DNA of 64,000 bases from Candidatus Omnitrophota bacterium (GCA_029571225.1 JAKPTF010000013.1:16344-80343); one strand, 5' to 3'; positions 41,861 through 64,000 are shown, numbered from the stretch's first letter. The notes: a model not told the origin generated them from the sequence alone. Made by a program: numbers and translations.

Positions 41861-41870
41861 CGGTGCGCAT

Positions 41871-48727: not shown

Positions 48728-48752
48728 AAATGGGGTCCGTCCCCATTTTTTG
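48726..48752 (+). terminator. Rho-independent terminator after rpsA
   Basis: AAAAATGGGG-TCCGT-CCCCATTTTT, a 10-bp perfect stem followed by TT. Confidence 0.8.
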
Positions 48753-48769
48753 TTAATAACTCTGCGGAT

Positions 48770-48794
48770 AAAAGGTGGGGACGGACCCCTTTTG
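48770..48794 (+). other. Second hairpin, inverted copy of the rpsA terminator core, just upstream of tyrS
   Basis: AAAAGGTGGGG-ACGGA-CCCCTTTTG. TGGGGACGGACCCC (48776-48789) is the exact reverse complement of GGGGTCCGTCCCCA (48732-48745). Confidence 0.5.
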
Positions 48795-48808
48795 TTCAAA
48801 AGGTGCGT

Positions 48809-49975
48809 ATGGATATTCAAAAACAGGTCGAGATCATTAAACGCGGCGCTGCGGGGATCGTTTCCGAGGAGGAACTGGTAAAGAAGCTTGAGGCCGCGCA
48901 GAAAGAGAATCGCCCGCTGCGTATCAAGGCCGGCTTTGACCCGACAGCCCCCGATATCCATATCGGCCATACGGTGCTTTTGCGGAAGCTGCGCCAATTC
49001 CAGGACCTCGGCCATGAGGTCTATTTCCTCATCGGAGACTTTACCGCTCAGATCGGGGACCCGACCGGAAGGTCGGCGATACGCAAGACCTTGAGCAAAG
49101 AAGAAGCCAGGGAGAACGCCAGGACCTATCAGATGCAGGTTTCGAAGATACTTGACCTCGATAAGATCAAGGTCGTGTTCAACAGCGACTGGTTCGAGAA
49201 AATGTCGGTCGCCCGGTTCCTCGGCCTGACCATGCACACTACAGTGTCGCAGATGGCTCAGCGCGAGGATTTCAAAAAACGGCTTGACAATAACCAGGAC
49301 GTCTCGCTTCTGGAGTTCATGTATCCGATACTGCAGGGGTACGATTCCGTGTTCCTGCACGCTGACGTAGAGCTAGGCGGCACCGACCAGATATTCAATC
49401 TTCTGCAGGGCAGGGAAATGCAGCGCGATTTCGGCCAGGAACCGCAGGTTGTCATCACCATGCCGCTTCTGGAGGGCACTGACGGCGTGAACAAGATGAG
49501 CAAGTCTCTGGGCAATTACGTCGCCATCAATGACAGGCCGCAGGACATGTTCGGAAAGCTTATGTCAATCTCCGATGAGCTCATGGTGAAGTATTACACG
49601 CTTTTGACCGACGAAAATATAGATGCGGTCAGGGCCATGCATCCGAAGGATGCCAAGGTTAAACTCGCCAAATTGATCATTACGCAGTATTATTCGTCCA
49701 ACATAGCCGAACAGGCCGCGGAGGAGTTCAGCCGCGTTTTTTCGTCCGGAGAGCTTCCGCAGGACATGCCGGAATTCAGGATTTCAGGTGAAATGCCCAT
49801 TGTTGATGTCGTGGTTGCCAGCGGCCAGGTCAAGAGCAAAAACGAAGTCCGCAGGCTCATCCAGCAGGGCGGCCTGGTATTTGAAGGGCAAAGGGTGTCG
49901 GACGTTAATGCGAAGGTCTCTGCCCCGGGAGTGCTTAAGATAGGGTCGCGCCGTTTCCTCAGGATAATTGCATGA
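48809..49975 (+). CDS. tyrS: Tyrosine--tRNA ligase
   Basis: HIGH motif (DIHIGHTV), KMSKS motif (KMSKSLGN), and a C-terminal S4-like domain. GTG 48803 is an alternative start. Confidence 0.92.
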
Positions 49976-50322
49976 TGGATATCATCAGGTCCAGGATTTC
50001 ACGCCAGGAATTGATAGCAAGGTATCTGACCCATTTTGAAACGGCCAGCAAGGCGGTCATTGACGTGAAACGCGGGATATTGGCGCTTGACGCCGAGCTG
50101 CACTCGGACCTTGAGGCCGCTTTGCTCAAGGACGGCTCCGTGCAGGATGACCTCTGGGGCATTAACCTGTATCCGCATAAGGAACGGAAGGATTTCATCG
50201 AGTACACGTCCCTGATCAACATCAGGCCTCATCAGGGCAATAAGAGCATGGTTGTCAGTGATCCGGCAGTCCGCGACCGAATATCCAGTGTAATCGACAC
50301 CCTAATTGACTATGGCGCTTAA
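49972..50322 (+). CDS. DUF5674-like protein
   Basis: [41 protein letters not shown]...[11 protein letters not shown] matches my recollection of the DUF5674 pattern. ATGA overlap with tyrS. Confidence 0.5.
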
Positions 50323-50656
50323 ATATCACGCGACGCTGACGCCCCAACGGTGGCAGTCATTCGGTTTCACCCGGCAGGTCCTTATGATCGCCAATGAATT
50401 GAACCGCGCGGGTGCCTGGCTCGAGAAGTCCGACGTTGAAGAGGCAAAACGCTCGTATGAGCGAGCTATGGAACTGACATATCTGACCATAGGCCTGCAG
50501 AAGGATGAAGGGCGCCTGCGGGAGCTTGCGCGGTTCAAGGAGGCCCTCGCCGGCCTCTATATTGACGAGTCGCCAGACGTCCGGGATAACGCGTTGCTGC
50601 TTCGCGTGCTCATTATGTTAGACGGCGCCAGCTTCGCGTCGCTAGACCACTCTTGA
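50312..50656 (+). CDS. Hypothetical helical protein, translationally coupled to the DUF5674 gene
   Basis: ATG 50312 (or TTG 50306) overlaps the DUF5674 stop. The sequence looks helical (VLMIANELNRAGAWLEK, AKRSYERAMELTYLTIG). I recognise no motif. Confidence 0.35.
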   Translation: MALKYHATLTPQRWQSFGFTRQVLMIANELNRAGAWLEKSDVEEAKRSYERAMELTYLTIGLQKDEGRLRELARFKEALAGLYIDESPDVRDNALLLRVLIMLDGASFASLDHS

Positions 50657-54380: not shown

Positions 54381-55394
54381 GTGAGATATTCCTCGGATAT
54401 AAAAACCAACCGTTTGCGCATAGTCCGTCAGGGAAGGTCAGCCTGCATCGACGGCGCCTGGCGCATTTCCTCCGGAAACAGTCTTGAGTATTGGCTTAAC
54501 AGCCCTGCGCAATGGAAGCGCACGAGCGGCCTTCCCCCGAAGATTTCATTTGACGGGAAATGGAAGCTGTCGGAGCAGGACGACCTGCAGTTGTCCGTCG
54601 CCAGAGCATCGTACATGCCCGAGGCGATTTCAGGGCTATCCCGTATAACCCTCAACGGCAGGATCATTTCTGCCGAACAGGATTCCCTGGTATTCGAAAC
54701 CAGGTCCATAGACGACAACGGGAATCTTCATGCTGGCCTGTTAAGGCTGACGGGCTCATGGGGCACCGATGATTCCAACAGGATAACGTTCAGGGTTTGC
54801 AGGCGTGCAGAGCCGGATACGCTCACGCTTTCAGGCTCGTGGTTCATCAACGATTCACAGCATATAACCTATACGATGGAAAAACGCGGCCTTGCCGGCG
54901 GGGACAGGTCAGCATCATCGGTCGAATTTGCCGGCTACTGGAACATTGATTCATCAAAACGCGTTGCTTACATCCTCCAGGGAAACGGCGCGTCGCGTTT
55001 TGATCTCAAAGCGCAGATTGAGACCCCAAACGTATATCCCCAGGCAGGCGTTATAAAATACCGGCTCGGAGCGGGGATTCGCGGCCAGGGTGGCAGGATA
55101 CCGCGGGTAATATGCCTCTATGGCCAGTGGAAGATAGGCAGGAAGCTGGGCGTCTCGTACGAGATGGAATATGAGAAGGGCAGGATCAGGTCGATCGAGT
55201 TCGGCGGACGCGTTGATCTGTCGCGTAAAGACAGAATTGAACTCAGCCTGCTCAACGCGCGCGGCGAAGCTATCGGCGCGCGGCTCATATTCACGCGAAG
55301 GTTTCTCAAGGCACTTGACGCCGAGCTTTTTCTACGTTTGAAGCAGGCCGGCAAGGAGAGGTCCATCGATGCCGGCGTAACCATTCCATTCTAA
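54381..55394 (+). CDS. Hypothetical protein built of ~8 G-x-W beta-hairpin-like repeats
   Basis: GTG start with no obvious SD, so the start is uncertain. Repeats: IDGAWRISSGNSLEYWL, FDGKWKLSEQDDLQLSV, LTGSWGTDDSNRITFRV, LSGSWFINDSQHITYTM, FAGYWNIDSSKRVAYIL, LYGQWKIGRKLGVSYEM, plus degenerate copies. No signal peptide. The protein ends ...GVTIPF. Confidence 0.4.
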   Translation: MRYSSDIKTNRLRIVRQGRSACIDGAWRISSGNSLEYWLNSPAQWKRTSGLPPKISFDGKWKLSEQDDLQLSVARASYMPEAISGLSRITLNGRIISAEQDSLVFETRSIDDNGNLHAGLLRLTGSWGTDDSNRITFRVCRRAEPDTLTLSGSWFINDSQHITYTMEKRGLAGGDRSASSVEFAGYWNIDSSKRVAYILQGNGASRFDLKAQIETPNVYPQAGVIKYRLGAGIRGQGGRIPRVICLYGQWKIGRKLGVSYEMEYEKGRIRSIEFGGRVDLSRKDRIELSLLNARGEAIGARLIFTRRFLKALDAELFLRLKQAGKERSIDAGVTIPF

Positions 55395-55406
55395 AAAAGG
55401 AGCTAT

Positions 55407-55661
55407 ATGAACTGGGAGATCGTGGGGTTTACTGCGGCATTGATGACGTCCTTCGGATTCCTGCCGCAGGTCATCAAGATATATAAGACAAAGTCTGTCC
55501 AGGACATAAGCCTGCTGGCGCTCGTCCAGTTCGCCGTCGGGATCTCGCTGTGGGTCGCCTACGGCGCGCACCTGCGCAACATAGTCATCATCACAGCCAA
55601 TACCGTTACTCTTCTGGTTTTATGCGCGGCGTTTGTACTGTATTTTCTTTACAGAAAATAG
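55407..55661 (+). CDS. SemiSWEET / PQ-loop family sugar transporter
   Basis: 84 aa, 3 TM, PQ motif (FGFLPQVIKIYKTKS). AAGGAG RBS. Confidence 0.7.
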   Translation: MNWEIVGFTAALMTSFGFLPQVIKIYKTKSVQDISLLALVQFAVGISLWVAYGAHLRNIVIITANTVTLLVLCAAFVLYFLYRK

Positions 55662-55671
55662 GAGGGCTTTG

Positions 55672-56472
55672 ATGGTGTATGCGCTTGGCTGCAGGAAGGA
55701 CCCCGTTGACCTTCGGGATTTGCCCATGGGGCTGGTTCTGCCCCAGATACCCGTGCCTTCGGTTGTGGATTATACGAGCCGCATGACCCCTGTCCGGGAT
55801 CAGGGAGATGAAGGGACATGCGTGGCATTTGCCAGCGTTGTGGGGGTAAAGGAATACGAGGATACGAAGGAATACAAAAAAAACGTGTCTCTGTCGCCGC
55901 GGTACGTGTACAGCCTGTGCAAAAAGTATGACGGCATTCCCGACGAAGAAGGCACGTACCCGCGCGTTGCCATGAAGGTGCTGCTCAAACACGGGGTATG
56001 CCCCGAATCGTTCTGGCCGTATAAGCCGCATCAGACCGATGATCATAGAAAAGGCGCTGACCAGAAAGCAAGGAGGTATCGCATCGAGGCATACGCGCGT
56101 CTGCAATCGGTCCAGGAGATGAAGCGCAGCCTCTACGTCAACGGCCCTTTCCTTGCCGGTGTGCGCGTATATGAGTCATGGTTCACAGAATGTGTTAAAA
56201 GGACGGGTATGATACCGCTACCGCGCAAGGGAGAAGAGATGCTCGGGGGCCATGCGGTTTGTATCGTAGCATACGATGATAATAAACAGCTTTTCAAATT
56301 CAAGAATTCCTGGGGCAAGGGCTGGGCGCGCAAAGGATACGGGCATCTGCCATATATATATATGCAACGCTATTGTTCTGATGCGTGGAGCGCTACGGAT
56401 CTTATAGAAGACCCGAGAACGCTTGTAAAATCGCGCGTAAACATCCTGAAAAAATTTTTTGTAACTGTTTAG
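55672..56472 (+). CDS. Papain-like (C1 family) cysteine peptidase, no signal peptide
   Basis: VRDQGDEGTCVAFA (catalytic Cys context), GGHAVCIVAYD (catalytic His), FKNSWGKGWARKGYG. AGGAGGG RBS before ATG 55672. Confidence 0.75.
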   Translation: MVYALGCRKDPVDLRDLPMGLVLPQIPVPSVVDYTSRMTPVRDQGDEGTCVAFASVVGVKEYEDTKEYKKNVSLSPRYVYSLCKKYDGIPDEEGTYPRVAMKVLLKHGVCPESFWPYKPHQTDDHRKGADQKARRYRIEAYARLQSVQEMKRSLYVNGPFLAGVRVYESWFTECVKRTGMIPLPRKGEEMLGGHAVCIVAYDDNKQLFKFKNSWGKGWARKGYGHLPYIYMQRYCSDAWSATDLIEDPRTLVKSRVNILKKFFVTV

Positions 56473-56513
56473 ATTGCAAGGTAATATGTTGCTTTTTCTG
56501 CCGTAAGATTTGC

Positions 56514-56541
56514 TTGACAAAAAGCCTCGGCGTATTATAAT
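56514..56541 (+). promoter_or_regulatory. Sigma70-type promoter heading the phosphonate locus
   Basis: TTGACA (56514-56519), a 16-nt spacer, then TATAAT (56536-56541), in an AT-rich 139-nt spacer. Confidence 0.55.
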
Positions 56542-56611
56542 AATTTCTCAAACATAACTTATTGTATTAAATACTAAATATAATAATATCAATAGGATAC
56601 AATAAAAGAGC

Positions 56612-58345
56612 ATGTTCAAAAAAAGGTTTATTGCTGAAGATTTTTCAAAAAAAAATAAACCTGTCAGTGTGCTTGATGAAGCGGTCAGAAAGATAGCAGG
56701 CAAGGCGCTTCCTTCATCAGGACAGAAGACACTGATTTTGTGCATTGACGGCATTAGCATTGATAAAATCCGGGCCATGATCGAACTCGGAAAATTGCCT
56801 GCCTTCAAGCGCTTGATCTTTGGCGGCGTCTCCGGCTATTTGCGCTCCACGATACCTCCTGACAGCCTGCCAGCCTGGCCAAGTTTCACAACCGGTAAGA
56901 ATCCAGCAAGGCACGGCATTACTGCCTATTTCAAGTCCTGTGGAGGGGAGGAAACCGCTGTGAACGCGACCATGATCGAGTCGCGTAAATTCTGGGACAG
57001 TTTCGATGACGCAGGTCTGAATTCGGTTGTCATGAACCTTCCAGCGACATATCCGCCGCAAGATATCCGCGGCATCATGATTTCCGATTATTTGAGCCCT
57101 GCCGGGGCGGTATTCACTCATCCGGCTGAATTGAGCGATGCCTTGACGCAAACAGGTTATTTCACTGACCTTGCGGCCACGAAGTTCTTCGAATATGACC
57201 TCACCAGACCGGAGCCGTTTTTGTATAAGATCGATAAGACGCTCGAAGCGGCCTTGAGCATTATGAGGAATTACCCCTGGGACACGTTCACCCTGTGTTT
57301 TATAGATCCCGACAAGGCGCATCACATATTCGGCCTTGAAGGCGGCGGCATCGACGCGGTTTATACACGCATCGACGAGTCCCTGGCAGAAATCATCAAA
57401 GCCGTGGACCTTGATAACACCGATATCTTCATCCTGTCTGACCATGGCGTTTCTAATTACAGCAGGGAATTCGCGCTTCATCCGTGGCTGTTCGAGAAAG
57501 GTTTGCTTGGTCTCAACAGCCTTCACGATCAGATTTCGGCAGCGAAGGGAACATCTGGCTGGCGTATGGATCTTTTGTGCCTCGCATACCGCCTTAAGGT
57601 GTCGCTGAACCTGCCAGGGATTCCGTTTTTCCATTTCCCCAAAGAAGTTCTTGCTTTGAATGCAAAAAATCCGTGCCCGTTCGACTGGTCGCGCACTCAG
57701 GCATACAGCCTTCAGCCTCCGACAAGCAATTACCTCCCGGTTTTTATCAATACAAACGGAGAGCGCCCGCACGGTATTGTCGAAAAAGGCAATAAATACG
57801 AAAGGCTTAAAGACATGCTGGTGCGCGAATTTTCCGATCTGCGCGATCCGGACACTGGCCGGCTTATTGTCAGGAGGATATGGGAGCGTGAGGAGCTGTT
57901 TTCGGGGAAGTACATGGCCGATATGCCCGACCTTGTCGTTGAGCTCGAGGAGGAATATATAGGCTTTTCCGGATATACCGACAGGAAACGTATTCAGAAC
58001 GGGCCTGTTTTCAGGAAGTTCGATACGCCGGTCCTTGACCACAGTATCAACGGGGCGTTCGTGTTCGCAGGGCCCAGGGCCCAGCATAACGCGAATGTCG
58101 AAGGCATGGCCCTTATGGACGTAATGCCTACGATTCTTTATTCCAGGCAGCTGCCTGTCCCATCGGATTTAGACGGCAGGGTCAGGACCGATATCTTTAC
58201 CGATGCGTTCATCAGTTCCTCAAGAATTATGACCGTTGATCCAGCCTGCAAAGCAGGGGCTGATAAGCTGCGGGCAAGGCACCATTCCCCCGAAGATCTG
58301 GAGCGGATTAACAGGGAGCTCAAACGCATGGGATACGTAAAATAG
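56612..58345 (+). CDS. Alkaline-phosphatase-superfamily protein (type I phosphodiesterase/nucleotide pyrophosphatase-like)
   Basis: LILCIDGISIDKI (metal-site Asp), PDSLPAWPSFTTGKNPARHGI, ILSDHGV. No signal peptide or TM. Confidence 0.7.
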   Translation: MFKKRFIAEDFSKKNKPVSVLDEAVRKIAGKALPSSGQKTLILCIDGISIDKIRAMIELGKLPAFKRLIFGGVSGYLRSTIPPDSLPAWPSFTTGKNPARHGITAYFKSCGGEETAVNATMIESRKFWDSFDDAGLNSVVMNLPATYPPQDIRGIMISDYLSPAGAVFTHPAELSDALTQTGYFTDLAATKFFEYDLTRPEPFLYKIDKTLEAALSIMRNYPWDTFTLCFIDPDKAHHIFGLEGGGIDAVYTRIDESLAEIIKAVDLDNTDIFILSDHGVSNYSREFALHPWLFEKGLLGLNSLHDQISAAKGTSGWRMDLLCLAYRLKVSLNLPGIPFFHFPKEVLALNAKNPCPFDWSRTQAYSLQPPTSNYLPVFINTNGERPHGIVEKGNKYERLKDMLVREFSDLRDPDTGRLIVRRIWEREELFSGKYMADMPDLVVELEEEYIGFSGYTDRKRIQNGPVFRKFDTPVLDHSINGAFVFAGPRAQHNANVEGMALMDVMPTILYSRQLPVPSDLDGRVRTDIFTDAFISSSRIMTVDPACKAGADKLRARHHSPEDLERINRELKRMGYVK

Positions 58346-58365
58346 AGCTTGCAAGGAGATTCTCA

Positions 58366-60012
58366 ATGGATAAAGGCAAGAAAAAATCCGGCATGACCAA
58401 GGCGGCGAAACTGAGGGCCCTTTTTGGGTCGGGCAAAGTCGTCAGGATCATGGGCGCGCATAATGCCCTTGGGGCAAAGCTTATAGAGCGAGCCGGTTTT
58501 GACGGGGTGTGGGCAAGCGGCCTTGAGATATCGACCAGTTTCGGCGTGCCTGACGCGAATATACTGACCATGACGGACTTCCTCAATGCCGCCGAATCCA
58601 TGAACGAGTCTGTCGGCATCCCTGTTGTTGCCGATTGCGACACGGGCTTCGGCAATTCCAATAATGTCATACACATGGTCAGGAAATACGAGGCTGCAGG
58701 GATCGCTGCGGTGTGCATCGAGGACAAGCATTTTCCCAAGGTCAACAGCTTTATCCCCGGCAGGCAGGAACTGGCCTCGGTTTCCGAGTTTATGGGCAAG
58801 ATCCTTGCTGCGAAAAACGCTCAGGTCGATCCGGATTTCATGGTGATCGCGCGCGTTGAGGCGCTTATCGCGGGCTGGGGCATGGAAGAGGCGCTGCGCA
58901 GGGCCTGCGCATACGTGGAGGCAGGGGCGGACGCTATACTTATACACAGCAAATCAAAGACAATCGAGGAGATCTCAGAGTTCTGCCGCGCCTGGAAGGA
59001 CAAGGCGCCGCTGGTAGCCGTGCCGACAACCTATTACGATGTGCCTATCGCGACGTTCCAGAAACTCGGCATATCCATGGTTATTTACGCCAACCATGGC
59101 CTGCGCGCTTCCATCAAAGCGATGCAGGATACGTTTCGGCGCATCCATGAAAATGGCAGCACGGCCGCGGTTGAGGGCAACATCGCCTCCATGCAGGAGG
59201 TGTTCGAACTGCAGGGCATGAACAAGATGAAAGAGGACGAATTGATCTATTCTGGGTCCGGAACAACCAGGACCGTGGCAATCCTGCCCGCTGCGGGCGA
59301 CCACCTCGAAGAATATTCCATGAAGGATATTTCCAGCGACATCCCGCTGTCCATGCTCGATATCAACGGAAAGCCTATACTCCAGCGCCAGGCAGAAATC
59401 CTTAACCGTGCCAGGGTCTATGATATCCGCGTGGTCGCCGGGTATAAAAAAGACAGGGTGCAGGTCGGCGGGGTGCGCGTCATACCGAATGATTCGTACA
59501 GGACCAGCGGCATACTGGATTCTGTTATGTGCGCGTTGAAGGACGTTTCCGGGCCGGCTCTTGTCATCTACGGCGACATCCTTTTCGACCATATCCTCAT
59601 CGAGCGGATCCTGAATAACCATAATGATATCACACTTGTGCTGGATAACACGTTCGATGCCTCGCGCCAGGCGCATAAGAAAAAGGCTGAACTTGCCCTT
59701 ACCGACTCAGGGGCTGTGCGCTCGCCGCGCACGCTTAACCATGACACGCTCCATCGCGTTAAAAAGATCGGCGATGGCGTGAAAAAAACGTCCGCGCAGT
59801 GCGAGTTCACCGGAATCATGTACCTTTCGGCTGAAGGCGTCAGGGTGTTTAAGGATAATTACCGTAAGAAGGCCTCCGGCCAGAGCCTTGTTGATTTTAT
59901 CGATTCCCTTATACTCAAGAAACATGACGTATCGTGCCTTGTGGTCAATTCGGGCTGGCTGGAGATACATTCGCTGGAGGATTATAAGGCCGCGTGCAGC
60001 CTTTTCAAATAA
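58366..60012 (+). CDS. pepM: Phosphoenolpyruvate mutase fused to a LicC-type nucleotidyltransferase domain
   Basis: The N-terminal ~290 aa are an isocitrate-lyase/PEP-mutase fold (RIMGAHNALGAKLIERAGFDGVWASGLEIS...PVVADCDTGFGN...CIEDKHFPK). The C-terminal ~250 aa are a nucleotidyltransferase (AILPAAGDH...LDINGKPIL...GWLEIHSLEDY). AAGGAGA RBS. Confidence 0.85.
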   Translation: MDKGKKKSGMTKAAKLRALFGSGKVVRIMGAHNALGAKLIERAGFDGVWASGLEISTSFGVPDANILTMTDFLNAAESMNESVGIPVVADCDTGFGNSNNVIHMVRKYEAAGIAAVCIEDKHFPKVNSFIPGRQELASVSEFMGKILAAKNAQVDPDFMVIARVEALIAGWGMEEALRRACAYVEAGADAILIHSKSKTIEEISEFCRAWKDKAPLVAVPTTYYDVPIATFQKLGISMVIYANHGLRASIKAMQDTFRRIHENGSTAAVEGNIASMQEVFELQGMNKMKEDELIYSGSGTTRTVAILPAAGDHLEEYSMKDISSDIPLSMLDINGKPILQRQAEILNRARVYDIRVVAGYKKDRVQVGGVRVIPNDSYRTSGILDSVMCALKDVSGPALVIYGDILFDHILIERILNNHNDITLVLDNTFDASRQAHKKKAELALTDSGAVRSPRTLNHDTLHRVKKIGDGVKKTSAQCEFTGIMYLSAEGVRVFKDNYRKKASGQSLVDFIDSLILKKHDVSCLVVNSGWLEIHSLEDYKAACSLFK

Positions 60013-60015
60013 CCG

Positions 60016-60501
60016 ATGATAACGCCCGCGCAGTTCCTTGACTATTTGAATAAGAGATCAATACGTTTCTTCGCCGGCGTGCCGTGCTCTTATGTGAAGA
60101 GCACGATAACCGCGCTGGAGCGTGACGCGCGTTTTACCTACGTCCCTGCAGTTAAGGAGGACGTTGCTTTGGGAATCAGCTCGGGTGCCTTTCTTGCAGG
60201 CAGGCGTTCCGGCATAATCATGCAGAATTCGGGTATCGGCCATGTCGTTAACGCCCTGACGTCCTTTAACATGATTTACAAGATCCCGGTGCTCATGCTG
60301 GTCACCTGGCGCGGCCGTGGGGCCGACGCCCCGGAGCACTCGGTCATGGGCAGGAAAACGCTTCCGTTATTGAAATGTCTCGGCATCCCGTGCCGTGTTC
60401 TTACCGAGGCGTACAGCACTGATATCGACTGGGCGATTCGGACCATGCGCGCTAAACGGGTTCCTGTTGCGCTGATCATCAGGGAGGGGATGATCGGATG
60501 A
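60016..60501 (+). CDS. Phosphonopyruvate decarboxylase, alpha (TPP pyrimidine-binding) subunit
   Basis: 161 aa. FFAGVPCSYVK...EDVALGISSGAFLAG...IMQNSGIGHVVNAL is a TPP-enzyme N-terminal domain, adjacent to pepM. Confidence 0.75.
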   Translation: MITPAQFLDYLNKRSIRFFAGVPCSYVKSTITALERDARFTYVPAVKEDVALGISSGAFLAGRRSGIIMQNSGIGHVVNALTSFNMIYKIPVLMLVTWRGRGADAPEHSVMGRKTLPLLKCLGIPCRVLTEAYSTDIDWAIRTMRAKRVPVALIIREGMIG

Positions 60502-61064
60502 AATGCCGTGAAGCGGTGGAGATCATGTTCAAGGTGATCGGGAAAGACGCGGTATGCTGTTTTACCAACGGCTTTATCGGCAGGATCGCTTATATCGTTA
60601 AGGACAGGCTGACTAATTTTTACATGGTCGGTTCCATGGGCCTTGTATCCTCCGTTGGGCTAGGCATTGCCATAAACTCGAAGCGCAGGGTCGTCGTTTT
60701 TGACGGCGACGGCAGCGCGCTAATGAATCTTGGCGCCCTGCCGCTTATAGGCAACCAAAAGCCAGAGAACCTGCTGCATGTTATCCTGGACAACGGTTGT
60801 TATGCGTCTACCGGAGGCCAGGCAACTGTATCGGATACAACGGATTTCTGCGGGCTGGCTAAAGCTTCCGGTTACGGGTCCGCGTTTTCGGCTGTCTCTG
60901 CCCGGGAGCTTGCGAAGAAATTATCTTCAGCCCTTCGTGCGAAAGGCCCGGCGCTGCTGCATGTCAGGATCGAGGCGGAGACTGCGACTCCGCCGGTGCG
61001 GGTCGCACTTTCGCCGGAACAGATGGCCGTCAGAATCAGGAAAAATATATTACGGAGGGGTTGA
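60498..61064 (+). CDS. Phosphonopyruvate decarboxylase, beta (TPP pyrophosphate-binding) subunit
   Basis: 188 aa. GSMGLVSSVGLGIAI...VFDGDGSALMNLGAL...LDNGCYASTGGQ (the GDGS...N TPP motif). ATGA overlap with the alpha subunit. Confidence 0.75.
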   Translation: MKCREAVEIMFKVIGKDAVCCFTNGFIGRIAYIVKDRLTNFYMVGSMGLVSSVGLGIAINSKRRVVVFDGDGSALMNLGALPLIGNQKPENLLHVILDNGCYASTGGQATVSDTTDFCGLAKASGYGSAFSAVSARELAKKLSSALRAKGPALLHVRIEAETATPPVRVALSPEQMAVRIRKNILRRG

Positions 61065-61071
61065 AACATCC

Positions 61072-61821
61072 ATGAAAGCGATTATTATAGCTGCGGGAAG
61101 GGCCAAACGCATGGAACATCTTTCGGAGAATCTGCCTAAATGCCTTTTTGAGGTCAATGGCAGGCCTGTCCTACGGCGTCAGATGGATACCTTCAGGGCG
61201 TGCGGGGTCATTGACATTGTGGTTATCAAGGGATATAAGCAGGAGCTTATCAATTATTCCGATGCGCGGTATTATATCAACGACGATTATATGAACAACA
61301 ATATCCTTAATTCGCTTTTTTACGCGGAAAAGGAAATCGAAGGTGATTGCATTATCACCTACGGCGACATTCTATTCAACGAAGGCGTTATCAGGAAGCT
61401 GGTTGCCTCCAAATCCGACATAGCAGCGGTCGTTGACACGGAATGGAAGGCTCATTATGAGAACCGGCACGCGCATCCTGTTACAGAGGCGGAGAACGTG
61501 ATCATGGATGAAGAGCACCGGTTGATAGAGATCGGCAAGATTATGGATAAAAAACACGCGGCCAACGCCGAGTTCATCGGCATGATAAAGGTGAGCGGGA
61601 AGGGTGCGAAAATCCTCACGTCCGAGTTTAACCGCGTAAAAAAGCTTTACGGCGGCAGGCCGTTCAAGCGCGCGGCTGTTTTCGCGCAGGCGTACCTGAC
61701 CGATATGCTCCAGGAACTGGTCGACGCAGGCTACCGGGTCGATTGCGTCCCGATCAGGGACGGCTGGATGGAGCTCGATACGCCTGACGATTACGCCGCT
61801 GCGGCAAAGGCGTTCGCCTGA
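61072..61821 (+). CDS. LicC-type nucleotidyltransferase (candidate phosphonate/phosphocholine cytidylyltransferase)
   Basis: MKAIIIAAGRAKRM...LPKCLFEVNGRPVL, YGDILF, GWMELDTPDDY. It is a paralogue of the C-terminal domain of the pepM fusion. GGAGGGG RBS. Confidence 0.75.
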   Translation: MKAIIIAAGRAKRMEHLSENLPKCLFEVNGRPVLRRQMDTFRACGVIDIVVIKGYKQELINYSDARYYINDDYMNNNILNSLFYAEKEIEGDCIITYGDILFNEGVIRKLVASKSDIAAVVDTEWKAHYENRHAHPVTEAENVIMDEEHRLIEIGKIMDKKHAANAEFIGMIKVSGKGAKILTSEFNRVKKLYGGRPFKRAAVFAQAYLTDMLQELVDAGYRVDCVPIRDGWMELDTPDDYAAAAKAFA

Positions 61822-61822
61822 T

Positions 61823-62704
61823 ATGTCGCGGCCAGATTCTTTCGCGCTCGGCCTCATTGTTCTGTCAGCTGCTATCCATCCTCTCTGGAATATGCTTCTC
61901 AAGAGGAGCGACGAAAAGGTCGTGTTCTATTTCAATATACACCTGTTCTTTACAATCTTTTTTTCGTTCACGCTATTTGTCCTGCCGGTTGCCTCTGTGA
62001 CAGGCAGGGGATGGCTCATGGTCCTTCTATCGAGCGTTGCGCATTTCTTCTATCAGATATATCTTTGCCGGACATACGAGCTGGGCGACATGTCCCTGAC
62101 ATACCCGATTATCAGGTCAGCCCCGTTATTTGTCGTGATCATGGCAGCGGTGTTCCTGAAGGAGCGGCTGTCGCCTTTGGCGATCGCTGGTATCGTCATT
62201 ATCGTGATCGGCGCGCAGATGATCAACCAGCAGAAGATATCGCTCAAGCAGTTCTTCGGGGCATGGCGGCATGCCCGGCCGCGCGTCGTGGCAGCTGCGG
62301 TATTGACCGCGTTTTTCTCAGCATTGTATTCCGTTATTGACAAAAAGGGTGCGCTTATCATTCACCCGGTGCTTTTCTTTTACCTTTTTTTTGCGGTGTC
62401 TGGGCTAATGTTCGGCTTATATCTGCTGTTTGCCCCTGGAAGAAAAAAGAACTATATAGCGTTAACGCGGGCCAACGCGCACAAGATCGCGCTTGCCGCC
62501 TTACTTGAATTCGCTTCGTACGTCCTTATCCTTTACGCGTTCAGGCTCACCGCGGTCGCGACCGTTGTAGCCATAAGGCAGATATCGGTCGTCTTTGGAG
62601 CGATGATCGGCATCTTTTTCCTGAAAGAGAAATACGGCAAGGCGCGCCTCTTGGCCTCCGTCGTGATATTTACCGGCATCTATTTACTGATTATTACAAA
62701 ATAA
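61823..62704 (+). CDS. EamA/DMT-superfamily transporter
   Basis: 293 aa with ten hydrophobic segments in two EamA-like halves. Confidence 0.75.
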   Translation: MSRPDSFALGLIVLSAAIHPLWNMLLKRSDEKVVFYFNIHLFFTIFFSFTLFVLPVASVTGRGWLMVLLSSVAHFFYQIYLCRTYELGDMSLTYPIIRSAPLFVVIMAAVFLKERLSPLAIAGIVIIVIGAQMINQQKISLKQFFGAWRHARPRVVAAAVLTAFFSALYSVIDKKGALIIHPVLFFYLFFAVSGLMFGLYLLFAPGRKKNYIALTRANAHKIALAALLEFASYVLILYAFRLTAVATVVAIRQISVVFGAMIGIFFLKEKYGKARLLASVVIFTGIYLLIITK

Positions 62705-62719
62705 TCGAAAGGGGTTTGC

Positions 62720-63931
62720 ATGAAAGGCAAGAATAAACATGCTCAAAACAAAGAGAAGATAACGCTCTATCCCGGAATGGCAGGCATGACGCGGGATATC
62801 GTGACCAGGCTTAAGGCCGAGGGTGCCCGGCTGCTTTCGCTAGACATAATGCTAACTCAAAAATGCAATTTCAGATGCAATTATTGTTATGCTGAAGGAA
62901 GCCCGGAGAAAAAGAACGAGCTGCTCATGAAGGAAGTCAAGCAGATCGTCGAAGAGGCGCTCGAGCTTGGGGTGCGGATCGTCAACATGCAGGGAGGCGA
63001 GCCGCTGATCTGGCATCCTGCGGATTGGGACGGCAAAGCGGGCGAGGCGTATTTCCACATTGTGGAACACATCAGGAACCGTTTCCAGGATGAGAATAAG
63101 CCGCTGGACCTGGTCAGCTTTACCGATGTCGCGTTGATCACGCGACAAAAGGCGAAGATACTGGCAGGCTTGAACATGGCGCTGTGCTGCAAGCTCGATT
63201 CGCTCGATCCTAAGATACAGGATTCCCTGCTCGGCGTGCCAGGCGGCTTATCTAAAATGATGCAGGGTTACGAGCATCTGATTTCGGTCGGTTATGGGAA
63301 TAAAGACATGCCTCCGCTTTCAACCAATACGGTTGTAACGACCGTCAATTATGACGGCATAGAGGACGTGTTCCGCTGGTCGCGCAGCCGGGGGTTCAGG
63401 CCGTTCGTTATACCCGTACACGTGCACGGAAGGGCGCAGTCAAACAGCGATATCATGCTTTCCGGGCAGAAGACAAAGAGCACTCTCAGTCCTCTTGACA
63501 TCAAGAAGCTATTCGAGAAGCTCGCAAAGATCGATAGGGAAGAGTTCAATATTATTTGGGAACCCAAAACGCCCTGGATCGAGAACAAGGCCTGCTCGCG
63601 GCATCTGGGCGGAGTGCATATCAGGGCCGACGGGATCGTGGTGCCGTGTTCCGAAGCGCCTGATTTCTGGGCCCTCGGCGACATACGAAAGCAGTCATTG
63701 AAGGAGATAATTTCTTCACCGAAGGTAGAGAAGTTCAGGCAGATCTACAGCAATCTGCATGAGGATTCCAAATGCTCGCCCAAGAGATGCGAAATGGCGG
63801 CTCAATTCAAGTGCTATGGCTGCCGCACCCGCGCCTACGACGATTCCGCGTTTGACAAAAAGGGCACCTATGACGTGAAACGGCTCGATCCACAGGCATT
63901 CTTTGCGGGCGATCCCGCATGCTGGTTATGA
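62720..63931 (+). CDS. Radical SAM protein with C-terminal SPASM-like Cys cluster (possible anaerobic sulfatase-maturase-type enzyme)
   Basis: CNFRCNYC (CxxxCxxC). C-terminal CSRHLGGVHIRADGIVVPC and CSPKRCEMAAQFKCYGC. A sulfatase gene follows. Confidence 0.8.
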   Translation: MKGKNKHAQNKEKITLYPGMAGMTRDIVTRLKAEGARLLSLDIMLTQKCNFRCNYCYAEGSPEKKNELLMKEVKQIVEEALELGVRIVNMQGGEPLIWHPADWDGKAGEAYFHIVEHIRNRFQDENKPLDLVSFTDVALITRQKAKILAGLNMALCCKLDSLDPKIQDSLLGVPGGLSKMMQGYEHLISVGYGNKDMPPLSTNTVVTTVNYDGIEDVFRWSRSRGFRPFVIPVHVHGRAQSNSDIMLSGQKTKSTLSPLDIKKLFEKLAKIDREEFNIIWEPKTPWIENKACSRHLGGVHIRADGIVVPCSEAPDFWALGDIRKQSLKEIISSPKVEKFRQIYSNLHEDSKCSPKRCEMAAQFKCYGCRTRAYDDSAFDKKGTYDVKRLDPQAFFAGDPACWL

Positions 63932-63949
63932 ACCGGATGTTTAAGATCT

Positions 63950-64000
63950 ATGACTAAGCCCAATGTGATATTTATCGTGCTTGACCAGTTACGACCGGAC
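63950..64000 (+). CDS. Sulfatase-family protein, N-terminal 17 codons only (cut by window end)
   Basis: MTKPNVIFIVLDQLRPD is the typical sulfatase N-terminal strand with a metal-binding Asp. Confidence 0.5.
   Translation, partial: MTKPNVIFIVLDQLRPD

What the first reader, a model, noticed from the sequence alone, without database searches (positions are those of the whole stretch)
56514..64000. Phosphonate biosynthesis locus with no visible aminotransferase/dehydrogenase step, flanked by AP-superfamily, rSAM/SPASM and sulfatase genes
**Seen in sequence**
- One promoter (TTGACA-N16-TATAAT) heads a tightly coupled run of genes.
- The run is: cytoplasmic alkaline-phosphatase-family protein, PEP mutase fused to a LicC-type nucleotidyltransferase, two-subunit phosphonopyruvate decarboxylase, a second LicC-type nucleotidyltransferase, an EamA transporter, a radical SAM/SPASM protein, and a sulfatase start.

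**Established knowledge**
- PepM plus Ppd commit carbon to phosphonoacetaldehyde.
- The common routes then need an AEP transaminase (PhnW/AepZ type) or an Fe-alcohol dehydrogenase (to hydroxyethylphosphonate).
- Cytidylyl activation (PntC/LicC-like) and a transferase (LicD or CDP-alcohol type) usually follow.

**Inference**
- None of those tailoring or transfer enzymes is in the 7.5 kb seen here. Three AP-superfamily or rSAM genes occupy their places.
- The locus may therefore make and attach a non-AEP phosphonate head group, with AP-superfamily enzymes acting as transferases, as EptA/LtaS-type enzymes do.
- It directly follows manC-ugd-uxs, which is consistent with decoration of a surface glycan.
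- The window ends inside the locus, so the missing genes may simply lie downstream.
Basis: partly seen in the sequence, partly recalled or inferred. Interest (0 to 1): 0.68.

Follow-up and report, generated by a model that had tools for sequence, protein, structure and literature searches.

The report
Phosphonate glycan locus with orphan radical-SAM step
An uncultured Omnitrophota bacterium carries a surface-sugar operon that makes a carbon-phosphorus head group without either usual finishing enzyme, using instead an uncharacterised radical-SAM enzyme seen here only next to phosphonate genes, so it probably marks an unstudied branch of phosphonate biosynthesis.

Summary
A perfect TTGACA-N16-TATAAT sits at 56514-56541. 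It heads a gap-free run of genes: NPP-like alkaline-phosphatase-family protein, PepM fused to a nucleotidyltransferase, split Ppd, LicC-like nucleotidyltransferase, EamA, radical SAM/SPASM, and a sulfatase-like start.

A near-identical contig extends the window by 6 kb. Downstream lie the sulfatase-like gene, Wzx, a methyltransferase-GT4 fusion, a LegB-like dehydratase and a sugar nucleotidyltransferase. There is no aminotransferase, Fe-ADH, LicD or CDP-alcohol transferase there or anywhere in the 64 kb.

The locus is built from two units.
- **Frame.** The AP protein, the Thr-type sulfatase-like protein and the Wzx/GT genes are conserved in Omnitrophota. In sister genomes this frame encloses other cytidylyl head-group cassettes (PepM-Ppd-Fe-ADH, or no PepM at all).
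- **Cassette.** PepM-NTase, Ppd, NTase, EamA and the rSAM/SPASM recur together elsewhere, for example in a Deltaproteobacteria-labelled MAG. The rSAM family is ≥60% identical throughout. It adjoins PepM or Ppd in 23 of 26 loci, and the other three are truncated contigs.

The rSAM is not a sulfatase maturase. Most likely it tailors phosphonoacetaldehyde or its CMP ester, and the soluble AP-superfamily enzymes transfer the CMP-activated phosphonate to the glycan. The reaction and product are unknown. I rate this a new variant of a known kind.

The parts
56514..56541 (+). Sigma-70-type promoter consensus TTGACA-N16-TATAAT in the 139-nt AT-rich gap before the operon
   Evidence: Read directly. It is the only 12/12 match in 54-64 kb. 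Function not tested.
56612..58345 (+). Soluble NPP-like alkaline-phosphatase-superfamily protein (577 aa), the 5' gene of the conserved glycan frame. Candidate CMP-phosphonate phosphonyl transferase or phosphodiesterase.
   Evidence: PF01663, E 5e-33. AlphaFold model pLDDT 86; best folds are ENPP5, Xac NPP and phosphonoacetate hydrolase, TM about 0.65-0.69 on the target. Ser/Thr at the nucleophile position 85. D46, D234, D277, H278 and H477 are invariant and H238 nearly so. No hydrophobic segment. Orthologues of 50-71% identity head the equivalent loci L009-L013 and L050.
58366..60012 (+). PEP mutase fused to a C-terminal NTP_transf_3 nucleotidyltransferase (548 aa)
   Evidence: TIGR02320 at 347 bits, above cut-off. 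PF13714 and PF12804. EDKHFPKVNS motif in the translation. This fusion type is described in PMC6697681.
60016..60501 (+). Phosphonopyruvate decarboxylase, N-terminal (TPP_enzyme_N) subunit
   Evidence: PF02776; TIGR03297 E 1e-37.
60498..61064 (+). Phosphonopyruvate decarboxylase, C-terminal (TPP_enzyme_C) subunit; 4-nt overlap with the previous gene
   Evidence: PF02775; TIGR03297 E 9e-51.
61072..61821 (+). Stand-alone LicC/PntC-type nucleotidyltransferase (249 aa)
   Evidence: PF12804 E 8e-14. Best solved relative is LicC 1jyk, E 8e-14. 28% identical to the NTase domain fused to PepM.
61823..62704 (+). EamA/DMT membrane protein (293 aa, about 9-10 TM segments), probable small-phosphonate transporter
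   Evidence: PF00892. TIGR03340 'phosphonate utilization associated' at 153 bits, below cut-off. Nine hydrophobic segments. Directly upstream of the rSAM in 13 of 26 loci.
62720..63931 (+). Radical SAM/SPASM enzyme (403 aa) of a tight, uncharacterised family linked to PepM. Candidate branch-point enzyme acting on phosphonoacetaldehyde or its CMP ester.
   Evidence: PF04055 and PF13186. CX3CX2C at C49/C53/C56, seven SPASM cysteines and an invariant CC156-157. 81 homologues of 60-95% identity collapse into one 50% cluster. Next to PepM or Ppd in 23 of 26 loci (PepM in 22); the other three are truncated contigs. No NCBIfam model reaches cut-off.
63950..64000 (+). Start of a soluble 376-aa sulfatase-fold protein with Thr, not Cys/Ser-x-P-x-R, at the nucleophile position. 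Continues past the window end. Candidate phosphonyl transferase.
   Evidence: Full gene at L001 9546-10676: PF00884 plus SGSH_C. T-V-G-S-L aligns to C-x-P-x-R. T45 is nearly invariant; D12, R15, D17, H123, H146, D209 and H210 are invariant. NTase fusion P0225 lies next to pepM.
55407..55661 (+). 84-aa PQ-loop/SemiSWEET-type membrane protein upstream of the promoter. Possibly part of the conserved glycan frame.
   Evidence: PF04193 and PF03083. The same gene lies two genes upstream of the AP gene in L009. Association not tested further.

Best explanation
The region is the 5' half of an operon of at least 13.5 kb. The operon decorates a Wzx-flipped surface glycan of an uncultured Omnitrophota bacterium with a phosphonate. 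It consists of two evolutionary units.

**Unit 1: a conserved Omnitrophota glycan frame.** It comprises a cytoplasmic NPP-like AP-superfamily protein at the 5' end and a cytoplasmic Thr-type sulfatase-fold protein. After these come Wzx, a methyltransferase-GT4 fusion, a LegB-like dehydratase and a sugar-1-P nucleotidyltransferase.

**Unit 2: a horizontally mobile phosphonate cassette inserted between the two AP-superfamily genes.** It comprises PepM-NTase, split Ppd, a LicC-like NTase, EamA and the rSAM/SPASM.

**Proposed mechanism**
1. PEP is converted to phosphonopyruvate (PepM) and then to phosphonoacetaldehyde (Ppd). The enzyme identities are shown by family membership.
2. The rSAM/SPASM enzyme replaces the usual aminotransferase or Fe-ADH branch point. 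It converts phosphonoacetaldehyde, or its CMP ester, into a head group that has not yet been identified. This step is inferred, by analogy with Fom3 acting on CMP-hydroxyethylphosphonate.
3. A nucleotidyltransferase supplies the CMP-phosphonate (inferred).
4. One or both soluble AP-superfamily enzymes attack the phosphonyl phosphorus of the CMP donor with their Ser/Thr nucleophile. They pass the phosphonyl group to the undecaprenyl-linked glycan on the cytoplasmic face, before Wzx flipping (inferred).
5. EamA moves the free phosphonate across the membrane. The direction is unknown (inferred).
For: **Gene identities**.

**Downstream extension**: no AT, ADH, LicD or CDP-alcohol transferase. None in the 64-kb window either.

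**Frame versus cassette**
- AP orthologues (50-71% identity) and sulfatase-like orthologues (56-64%) bracket three different modules.
  - CTP_transf_like plus MFS, without pepM (L009).
  - CTP_transf_like-PepM, Ppd and Fe-ADH (L010-L012).
  - The rSAM cassette (window, L013, L050/L051).
- The window's PepM is 80% identical to L013, 75% to a Planctomycetia MAG and 65% to a contig NCBI labels as a Deltaproteobacteria MAG. It is only 36% identical to the PepM of L010-L012.

**rSAM linkage**
- PepM/NTase in 22 of 26 loci, Ppd in 19, EamA in 13. No other family recurs widely.
- Pfam census of 133 neighbouring genes: Fe-ADH is absent from the 25 most frequent families and aminotransferases occur twice.
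- L014, L022 and L023 are self-contained operons in housekeeping surroundings.

**rSAM is not a maturase**
- The sulfatase-like protein has Thr and Leu where a formylglycine sulfatase has Cys/Ser and Arg.
- The AP protein has Ser at the nucleophile position whether or not an rSAM is present.

**Transferase idea**
- NPP fold of the AP protein.
- Intact catalytic residues.
- No TM segment or signal peptide.
- No other head-group transferase in any of these Omnitrophota loci.
- A sulfatase-like/NTase fusion sits next to pepM.
Against: - No biochemical datum exists for any of the three key proteins.
- The rSAM's substrate, reaction and product are unknown. Fold search gives only generic SPASM neighbours.
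- A distant paralogue (33% identity) coexists with Fe-ADH in L049. The wider family therefore does not always replace the ADH.
- An aminotransferase or reductase elsewhere in the genome cannot be excluded from 70 kb of sequence.
- Distant homologues of the AP protein (27-31% identity) sit in glycan loci with no nucleotidyl head-group genes. That family is therefore not specific to phosphonates.
- The AP and sulfatase-like proteins could be hydrolases.
- The minimal cassettes in L014, L022 and L023 encode no transferase at all.
Confidence: 0.55

Rival explanations
1. The pathway is ordinary AEP or HEP synthesis. The aminotransferase or alcohol dehydrogenase is encoded elsewhere, or the step is done by a housekeeping enzyme. 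The rSAM/SPASM performs a later modification of AEP, HEP or the CMP ester, not the branch-point step.
For: - A 33%-identical rSAM paralogue sits between PepM and Ppd in a cluster that also has Fe-ADH.
- L015/L034 combine the rSAM with a class-V aminotransferase.
- Only about 70 kb of this genome was seen.
Against: - Across 26 rSAM loci from several lineages, no ADH occurs and aminotransferases are rare and not conserved.
- The closest PepM-NTase relatives that lack the rSAM keep an aminotransferase or Fe-ADH immediately after Ppd.
- AEPT and PhpC are normally clustered with ppm (PMC8942020).
Confidence: 0.2
2. The rSAM/SPASM is an anaerobic sulfatase-maturating-type enzyme. It makes formylglycine in the adjacent sulfatase-like protein or in the AP protein.
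For: - The rSAM/SPASM is adjacent to a PF00884 gene.
- anSME is among the best structural matches.
- The AP protein has S-L-P at its nucleophile position.
Against: - The sulfatase-like protein has T-V-G-S-L instead of C/S-x-P-x-R. The Thr is nearly invariant across 20 homologues.
- The frame exists without the rSAM in L009-L012.
- The rSAM occurs with PepM and without any sulfatase or AP gene in L014, L016, L022-L028 and others.
- The AP nucleophile is Ser with or without an rSAM nearby.
- Sequence similarity to anSME is only E about 1e-5.
Confidence: 0.03
3. The AP-family and sulfatase-like proteins are hydrolases. They would release free phosphonate from its CMP ester, as FomD does in fosfomycin synthesis, or trim head groups. 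The real transferase would be another gene, or would lie outside the locus.
For: - The nearest folds and sequences are hydrolases: NPPs, phosphonoacetate hydrolase and sulfatases.
- The minimal cassettes need no transferase.
- An EamA exporter is present.
Against: - Both genes are fixed parts of a Wzx/GT glycan operon and are kept whichever head-group cassette is inserted.
- No alternative transferase is present in those loci.
- A fusion with a nucleotidyltransferase would make and then destroy the same ester if the domain were a hydrolase.
- From general knowledge: PF01663 and PF00884 include true phospho-head-group transferases (PigN/Mcd4, EptA, LtaS).
Confidence: 0.15
4. The EamA and stand-alone NTase form a LicB/LicC-like salvage pair. 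They would import an external head group (AEP, choline or similar) and cytidylylate it, so part of the decoration would not come from the PepM route. This is compatible with the main explanation.
For: - The NTase's best solved relative is LicC.
- The EamA resembles a membrane protein associated with phosphonate utilisation.
- In L009 an MFS transporter plus a cytidylyltransferase occupy the same slot, without pepM.
Against: - No LicA-type kinase is present.
- The EamA is tied to the rSAM and PepM even in minimal operons that have only the fused NTase (L014).
- The EamA has no detectable similarity to any solved structure.
Confidence: 0.1

Closest known systems
CMP-AEP phosphonoglycan (Pnt) clusters: Ppm-NTase fusion, Ppd, AEP transaminase, PntC, LicD (Rice et al. 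2019, PMC6697681)
   Same: - PepM with the EDKxxxxxNS motif, fused to a PF12804 nucleotidyltransferase.
- Ppd.
- A second LicC/PntC-like NTase.
- Location in a cell-surface glycan locus.
   Different: - No AEP transaminase and no LicD or CDP-alcohol transferase.
- An rSAM/SPASM and an EamA are present instead.
- Two soluble AP-superfamily proteins bracket the cassette.
'Post-Ppd other' unclassified ppm neighbourhoods of Li & Horsman 2022 (PMC8942020), e.g. Campylobacter GCF 385 with radical SAM and adenylylsulfate kinase
   Same: - Ppm and Ppd are present with none of the tested known branch-point enzymes.
- Related loci here also carry an APS-kinase/rSAM-SPASM fusion (L016), which echoes the GCF 385 description.
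   Different: - That paper lists such clusters without defining this rSAM family, its strict PepM linkage or the AP-superfamily frame.
- Homology of the Campylobacter rSAM to this family was not tested.
Fom1 cytidylyltransferase plus Fom3 radical SAM in fosfomycin biosynthesis
   Same: - A PepM-fused cytidylyltransferase (as cited in PMC6697681).
- From general knowledge: the Fom3 radical SAM enzyme acts on the CMP-activated C2 phosphonate.
- Here the NTase gene lies within one gene of the rSAM gene in most loci.
   Different: - Fom3 is a B12-dependent methyltransferase that needs HEP made by an Fe-ADH.
- This enzyme is a B12-free SPASM protein with two predicted auxiliary clusters, and the cassette has no ADH.
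EptA/MCR-1 and LtaS (PF00884) and PigN/Mcd4 (PF01663) phospho-head-group transferases
   Same: - AP-superfamily fold.
- Thr/Ser nucleophile and metal ligands conserved.
- Expected ping-pong transfer of a phosphoryl-type head group to a glycoconjugate.
   Different: - Those enzymes are membrane-anchored, act outside the cytoplasm and use lipid donors.
- These proteins are soluble with no signal peptide, so they are presumably cytoplasmic.
- They are genetically coupled to nucleotidyl (CMP/CDP) donors.
- By sequence the sulfatase-like protein is closer to arylsulfatases.
Anaerobic sulfatase-maturating enzyme with its sulfatase
   Same: An rSAM/SPASM gene lies next to a PF00884 gene, and the overall fold is similar.
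   Different: - There is no C/S-x-P-x-R target motif.
- The two genes are not co-inherited.
- The rSAM follows PepM, not the sulfatase-like gene.

Membership tests
PEP mutase (phosphonate-committing enzyme) | Reaches the equivalog model and has the EDKxxxxxNS motif | tested here: met
   TIGR02320 at 347 bits against a cut-off of 319.55. EDKHFPKVNS in the translation. Motif definition from PMC6697681.
Phosphonopyruvate decarboxylase | TPP N and C domains that match TIGR03297, adjacent to pepM | tested here: met
   The two subunits score 130 and 173 bits on the two halves of TIGR03297. Both scores exceed those for sulfopyruvate decarboxylase. The gene starts 3 nt after pepM. Each half alone is below the whole-protein cut-off because the gene is split.
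Standard CMP-AEP glycan-decoration cluster | AEP transaminase (class-V aminotransferase) in the cluster | tested here: not met
   No hit in the window at E<1e-3. None in the 6 kb downstream.
Standard CMP-AEP glycan-decoration cluster | LicD or CDP-alcohol phosphotransferase | tested here: not met
   No hit in the window. None in L001, L013 or L050.
Standard CMP-AEP glycan-decoration cluster | PntC/LicC-type cytidylyltransferase that activates AEP | tested here: inconclusive
   Family membership is met: PF12804, and LicC is the best solved relative. Substrate specificity cannot be read from the sequence.
HEP-type phosphonate cluster | Fe-dependent alcohol dehydrogenase (PhpC type) after Ppd | tested here: not met
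   Absent from the window and from all 26 loci of the tight rSAM family. Present in the sister frames L010-L012.
anSME with a formylglycine sulfatase | C/S-x-P-x-R motif in the sulfatase | tested here: not met
   T-V-G-S-L occupies that position. The Thr is nearly invariant in 20 homologues.
anSME with a formylglycine sulfatase | Co-inheritance of maturase and sulfatase | tested here: not met
   Frames occur without the rSAM. The rSAM occurs without a sulfatase.
SPASM-domain radical SAM enzymes | CX3CX2C motif plus a C-terminal seven-Cys motif for two auxiliary clusters | tested here: met
   C49, C53 and C56, plus C292, C310, C352, C357, C365, C368 and C401, are all invariant. PF04055 and PF13186. 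Fold matches SkfB, anSME and SuiB. Only about 40 residues precede the core and Pfam reports no peptide-recognition domain.
NPP/PhnA branch of the alkaline-phosphatase superfamily | NPP fold with a Thr/Ser nucleophile and six metal ligands | tested here: met
   Foldseek E about 1e-15 to ENPP5, Xac NPP and PhnA. S85, D46, D234, H238, D277, H278 and H477 are conserved. Activity not testable here.
EptA/LtaS-type head-group transferases | N-terminal transmembrane domain, extracytoplasmic catalytic domain, lipid donor | tested here: not met
   No hydrophobic segment reaches 1.6 in either protein. The donor cannot be tested here. They may work like these enzymes but are not members of those subfamilies.
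lic1-type salvage operon (LicA-LicB-LicC-LicD) | Choline kinase LicA and transferase LicD alongside the permease and cytidylyltransferase | tested here: not met
   Only EamA-family and LicC-like genes are present. No LicD is found. No Pfam domain of any operon gene is a choline-kinase family.

The most novel reading that the evidence does not exclude
The PepM-linked rSAM/SPASM could be an oxygen-independent counterpart of the O2-dependent enzymes MPnS and HEPD. It would fragment phosphonoacetaldehyde, or its CMP ester, by radical chemistry into a C1 phosphonate such as methylphosphonate or hydroxymethylphosphonate. That head group would then be esterified to surface glycans. This would be an anaerobic biological source of methylphosphonate. 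The broader form of the reading is more likely, at about 0.5: the enzyme is simply a new early branch point after phosphonoacetaldehyde that yields an undescribed head group.
Probability: 0.07. Interest if true: 0.9.

Novelty: new variant of a known kind. Interest (0 to 1): 0.64.

Why it matters
Published surveys sort phosphonate gene clusters by seven early branch-point enzymes and leave a residue of 'other' clusters. This locus gives that residue a concrete, testable candidate.

- **A candidate branch-point enzyme.** The rSAM/SPASM family is extremely conserved. It travels with PepM and Ppd in lineages labelled Omnitrophota and Deltaproteobacteria and in unassigned metagenome contigs. In nearly all of these loci neither an aminotransferase nor an ADH is present. 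Identifying its product could add a new phosphonate head group. It could also add an oxygen-independent tailoring reaction, relevant to phosphorus and possibly methane cycling in anoxic habitats.
- **Candidate transferases.** The locus points to soluble Thr/Ser-type AP-superfamily proteins as the enzymes that move nucleotide-activated phosph(on)o head groups onto glycans where LicD is absent. One of these families is found fused to a nucleotidyltransferase.

Tried and rejected
- **rSAM as an anSME for the neighbouring sulfatase.** Rejected on motif and co-inheritance.
- **rSAM maturing the Ser nucleophile of the AP protein.** Rejected because orthologues in loci without the rSAM also have Ser.
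- **Missing genes just past the window end.** Rejected by the near-identical contig L001.
- **Aminotransferase or ADH elsewhere in the window.**
  - tblastn found none.
  - The upstream Aldedh gene (41796-43133) follows an amino-acid-kinase/PUA gene, so I read the pair as proB-proA, not PhnY.
- **GTDB genome scan with the PepM fusion.**
  - It returned only 6 loci, none from this organism.
  - The two closest have standard aminotransferase or Fe-ADH routes and no AP, rSAM or sulfatase homologues. They served as a contrast only.
- **Fold search of the rSAM model.** Only generic SPASM neighbours at TM about 0.6, giving no functional lead.
- **NCBIfam scan of the rSAM.** No model came near its cut-off.
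- **Literature searches.**
  - Searches combined radical SAM or SPASM with phosphonate, PEP mutase or phosphonoacetaldehyde. They found no description of this family.
  - Metcalf 2012 and Yu 2013 are not held, so statements about them rest on memory.
- **EamA against solved structures.** No match.
- **The 271-aa ORF after the rSAM in L015.** Profile comparison to the sulfatase-like family gave only a weak match at the DHG motif.

Full report
**1. What is in the sequence**

Between 56612 and 64000 all real genes lie on the + strand and are packed with gaps of 20, 3, -4, 7, 1, 15 and 18 nt. Pfam and NCBIfam identify them as follows.

| Window coordinates | Protein | Key evidence |
|---|---|---|
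| 56612-58345 | PF01663 'Phosphodiest' protein, 577 aa | E 5e-33 |
| 58366-60012 | PEP mutase plus C-terminal NTP_transf_3 domain | TIGR02320 at 347 bits, above its cut-off; EDKHFPKVNS motif |
| 60016-60501 and 60498-61064 | Phosphonopyruvate decarboxylase split into TPP-N and TPP-C subunits | Both match TIGR03297 |
| 61072-61821 | NTP_transf_3 protein, 249 aa | Best solved relative is LicC |
| 61823-62704 | EamA protein | 153 bits to TIGR03340, 'phosphonate utilization associated' membrane protein, below cut-off |
| 62720-63931 | Radical_SAM plus SPASM protein, 403 aa | PF04055, PF13186 |
| 63950 onward | Start of a sulfatase-family gene | MTKPNVIFIVLDQLRPD |

A perfect TTGACA-N16-TATAAT lies at 56514-56541 in the AT-rich gap before the first gene. 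It is the only 12/12 match in 54-64 kb. manC and ugd upstream are confirmed. 'uxs' is an SDR of unconfirmed specificity. The observation therefore stands.

**2. Extending the window**

The rSAM protein is encoded on two public metagenome contigs. L001 matches window 54405-64000 with 2 mismatches in 9596 nt and continues 6081 nt further. Downstream come, in order:
- the complete 376-aa sulfatase-family gene;
- a Wzx-type flippase;
- a methyltransferase-GT4 fusion;
- a LegB-like NAD-dependent dehydratase;
- a sugar-1-phosphate nucleotidyltransferase.

No aminotransferase, Fe-ADH, LicD or CDP-alcohol transferase follows. tblastn with examples of these families finds none anywhere in the 64-kb window. 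The nearest upstream genes are housekeeping: RNase G, obg, a putative proB-proA pair, a phosphoglucomutase-family gene, ispH, rpsA and tyrS. An identical copy of the first protein is named by NCBI as coming from a Candidatus Omnitrophota MAG.

**3. The locus is a cassette inside a frame**

Orthologues of the AP-family protein (50-71% identity) come from Omnitrophota MAGs where a source is named. Their contexts are shown below.

| Locus | Genes between the AP gene and the sulfatase-like gene |
|---|---|
| L009 | 140-aa CTP_transf_like cytidylyltransferase and an MFS transporter; no pepM |
| L010/L011, L012 | CTP_transf_like-PepM fusion, unsplit Ppd, Fe-ADH (the classical hydroxyethylphosphonate route) |
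| L013, L050/L051, the window | PepM-NTP_transf_3, split Ppd, NTase, EamA, rSAM/SPASM |

Each locus in which both ends are visible starts with the AP gene and resumes with the sulfatase-like gene, Wzx and the MT-GT4 fusion. L050 and L051 end within or just after the rSAM gene.

Frame proteins diverge evenly whatever the insert:
- AP 50-71% identity;
- sulfatase-like 56-64%;
- Wzx 48-55%;
- MT-GT4 51-58%;
- dehydratase 77-85%.

The window's PepM behaves differently. It is 80% identical to L013, 75% to a Planctomycetia MAG and 65% to a contig NCBI labels as a Deltaproteobacteria MAG. It is only 36% identical to the PepM of L010-L012. The head-group module has thus been exchanged within a conserved glycan frame. 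None of these Omnitrophota loci encodes LicD or a CDP-alcohol transferase.

**4. The rSAM/SPASM belongs to the phosphonate cassette**

- *A very tight family.* The database search returned 83 homologues, and 81 of them are 60-95% identical to the query. A search of 1.84 billion 50%-identity representatives collapses the full-length members into a single cluster. The next full-length relatives are 33-43% identical.
- *Conserved residues.* The alignment shows invariant C49, C53 and C56, seven invariant SPASM cysteines, an invariant CC156-157 pair and many invariant basic residues. Only about 40 residues precede the core, and Pfam reports no peptide-recognition domain.
- *Neighbourhoods.* I mapped neighbours in 26 loci by tblastn and by de novo ORF clustering.
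  - PepM/NTase occurs in 22 loci, Ppd in 19 and EamA in 13. No other family recurs widely.
  - Four loci show no PepM. One of them (L032) still has Ppd beside the rSAM. The other three are contigs truncated at the relevant side.
- *Neighbour census.* A Pfam census of 133 neighbouring genes in 13 non-redundant loci gives:
  - 18 Radical_SAM, 13 of them with SPASM;
  - 11 NTP_transf_3;
  - 10 PEP_mutase;
  - 9 TPP_enzyme_C;
  - 7 CTP_transf_like;
  - 6 EamA;
  - 5 LicD;
  - 2 aminotransferases.

  Fe-ADH is not among the 25 most frequent families.
- *Self-contained operons.* In L014, L022 and L023 the operon (NTase)-EamA-rSAM-PepM/NTase-Ppd stands alone among housekeeping genes.
- *Contrast.* The closest PepM-NTase relatives that lack the rSAM keep an aminotransferase (L003) or an Fe-ADH (L004) directly after Ppd, followed by an NTase and a CDP-alcohol transferase.

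The rSAM is therefore the one conserved non-core enzyme of a PepM-Ppd cassette that lacks the known PnAA branch-point enzymes.

**5. Why it is not a sulfatase maturase**

- The 376-aa protein aligns T-V-G-S-L to the C-x-P-x-R formylglycine motif.
- The Thr is nearly invariant in 20 diverse homologues. D12, R15, D17, H123, H146, D209 and H210 are invariant.
- The AP protein has Ser at its nucleophile position in all Omnitrophota orthologues, with or without an rSAM nearby.
- Frame and rSAM are inherited independently (section 3).
- Sequence similarity of the rSAM to anSME is marginal (E about 1e-5). The AlphaFold model (pLDDT 77) matches SkfB, anSME, SuiB and CteB about equally, at TM about 0.6.

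**6. What the AP-superfamily proteins probably do**

- Both lack any hydrophobic segment or signal peptide.
- The AP protein model (pLDDT 86) is an NPP fold. Its best matches are ENPP5, Xac NPP, ENPP1/3 and phosphonoacetate hydrolase (sequence match to PhnA). It has a complete set of metal ligands. NPPs cleave nucleotide phosphodiester and pyrophosphate bonds through a covalent Thr intermediate.
- The sulfatase-like family is large: 371 or more homologues, labelled as Omnitrophota, DPANN-type archaea (Woesearchaeota, Micrarchaeia), Hydrogenedentota and Methylomirabilales.
- In one member (P0225) the sulfatase-like domain is fused to an NTP_transferase domain. That gene sits immediately upstream of CTP_transf_like-PepM, an rSAM, Ppd, Fe-ADH and a GT4.
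- Three observations point the same way: constant bracketing of interchangeable cytidylyl head-group cassettes, absence of any other transferase, and the fusion. I infer that one or both proteins transfer the head group from a CMP/CDP donor to the lipid-linked glycan in the cytoplasm.
- From general knowledge, PF01663 includes PigN/Mcd4 and PF00884 includes EptA and LtaS. All of these are true head-group transferases, but they are membrane-bound and use lipid donors.
- A hydrolase role is not excluded. More distant AP homologues (27-31% identity) sit in glycan loci without nucleotidyl head-group genes.

**7. What the rSAM may do**

Shown: strict linkage to PepM and Ppd; a cytidylyltransferase gene within one gene of it in most loci; two predicted auxiliary clusters; many conserved basic residues.

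Inferred:
- It acts on phosphonoacetaldehyde or a CMP-bound C2 phosphonate. This parallels Fom1 and Fom3, where the cytidylyl group is the handle for a radical SAM enzyme (the Fom1 fusion is cited in PMC6697681; the Fom3 substrate is from general knowledge).
- SPASM enzymes acting on non-peptide substrates typically carry out two-electron oxidations or C-C scissions (general knowledge). Candidate reactions are therefore oxidation or fragmentation of the aldehyde or its hydrate.

The product cannot be deduced. One caveat applies. A 33%-identical paralogue sits between PepM and Ppd in L049 together with Fe-ADH. The wider family is therefore not always an ADH substitute.

**8. Comparison with the literature**

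- Ppm-NTase fusions and clusters with both a fused and a stand-alone NTase are described (PMC6697681).
- Li & Horsman sorted 434 ppm neighbourhoods by seven branch-point enzymes. Fifteen gene-cluster families remained unassigned, most of them 'post-Ppd other'. These include Campylobacter clusters with radical SAM and adenylylsulfate kinase genes. The paper also mentions sulfatase-rich Selenomonas clusters (PMC8942020).
- Related loci here also carry an APS-kinase/rSAM-SPASM fusion.
- No paper in the searchable library links a SPASM radical SAM enzyme to PEP mutase.
- From memory, the Nitrosopumilus methylphosphonate cluster was noted to contain sulfatase-like and nucleotidyltransferase genes. 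That paper could not be read.

**9. Verdict**

The anatomy differs from what was proposed. The locus is a known kind of system, a phosphonoglycan locus with nucleotidyl activation, in a new variant:
- an uncharacterised PepM-linked rSAM/SPASM stands where the aminotransferase or ADH normally is;
- soluble Thr/Ser-type AP-superfamily proteins stand where LicD normally is.

All mechanistic steps after phosphonoacetaldehyde are inference.

Noticed in passing
L049 9001-10875 (protein P0225): A 624-aa fusion of the Thr-type sulfatase-like domain with an NTP_transferase/NTP_transf_3 domain. It lies directly upstream of CTP_transf_like-PepM, an rSAM, Ppd, Fe-ADH and a GT4. A second sulfatase-family gene and an APS kinase are nearby.
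   Followed up: partly
L049 12264-13790: A 508-aa rSAM, 33% identical over its full length to the window's rSAM (E 4e-74), sits between PepM and Ppd in a cluster that also has Fe-ADH. The wider rSAM family is also PepM-linked but does not always lack the ADH.
   Followed up: partly
L016 15750-17315 and 13879-15750: An APS_kinase/Radical_SAM/SPASM fusion (522 aa) and a HAD/sulfotransferase-like protein lie downstream of the PepM-Ppd-NTase-rSAM cassette. A homologous ORF recurs in five rSAM loci (L016, L019-L021, L033). This recalls the 'radical SAM and adenylsulfate kinase' remark for Campylobacter GCF 385 in PMC8942020.
   Followed up: partly
window 47186-49975 versus L012 1301-4033: The variable glycan locus lies downstream of ribosomal protein S1 and tyrosyl-tRNA synthetase in both the window and the distant Omnitrophota contig L012. 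This suggests a conserved chromosomal site for a swappable surface-glycan region.
   Followed up: no
window 54381-56472: Three genes lie between the SDR gene and the promoter. They are a 337-aa protein with no Pfam or NCBIfam match, an 84-aa PQ-loop/SemiSWEET-type protein (also upstream of the AP gene in L009) and a papain-family C1 peptidase with no hydrophobic N-terminal segment.
   Followed up: no
window 60016-61064 versus L010 13116-14255 and L014 12848-14065: Ppd is split into two overlapping genes in the window, L013, L050 and the Planctomycetales-labelled L004 (L003 looks the same). It is a single gene of 379-405 aa in L010-L012 and L014.
   Followed up: no
L015 11215-12030 (also in L033-L035): A 271-aa ORF with no Pfam hit directly follows the rSAM. 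It carries 'LLVIDACRYD' and 'ITSDHGERLGEG' motifs, which resemble the metal-binding motifs of the sulfatase-like family. The profile match is weak (hhalign probability 28%).
   Followed up: partly
window 1-64000: Nearly all ORFs of 280 aa or more are on the + strand; the few on the - strand overlap longer + strand ORFs. Cumulative GC skew rises monotonically across the whole window.
   Followed up: no
window 49972-50656: Two adjacent 116-aa ORFs of unknown function lie between tyrS and manC. They were not analysed.
   Followed up: no
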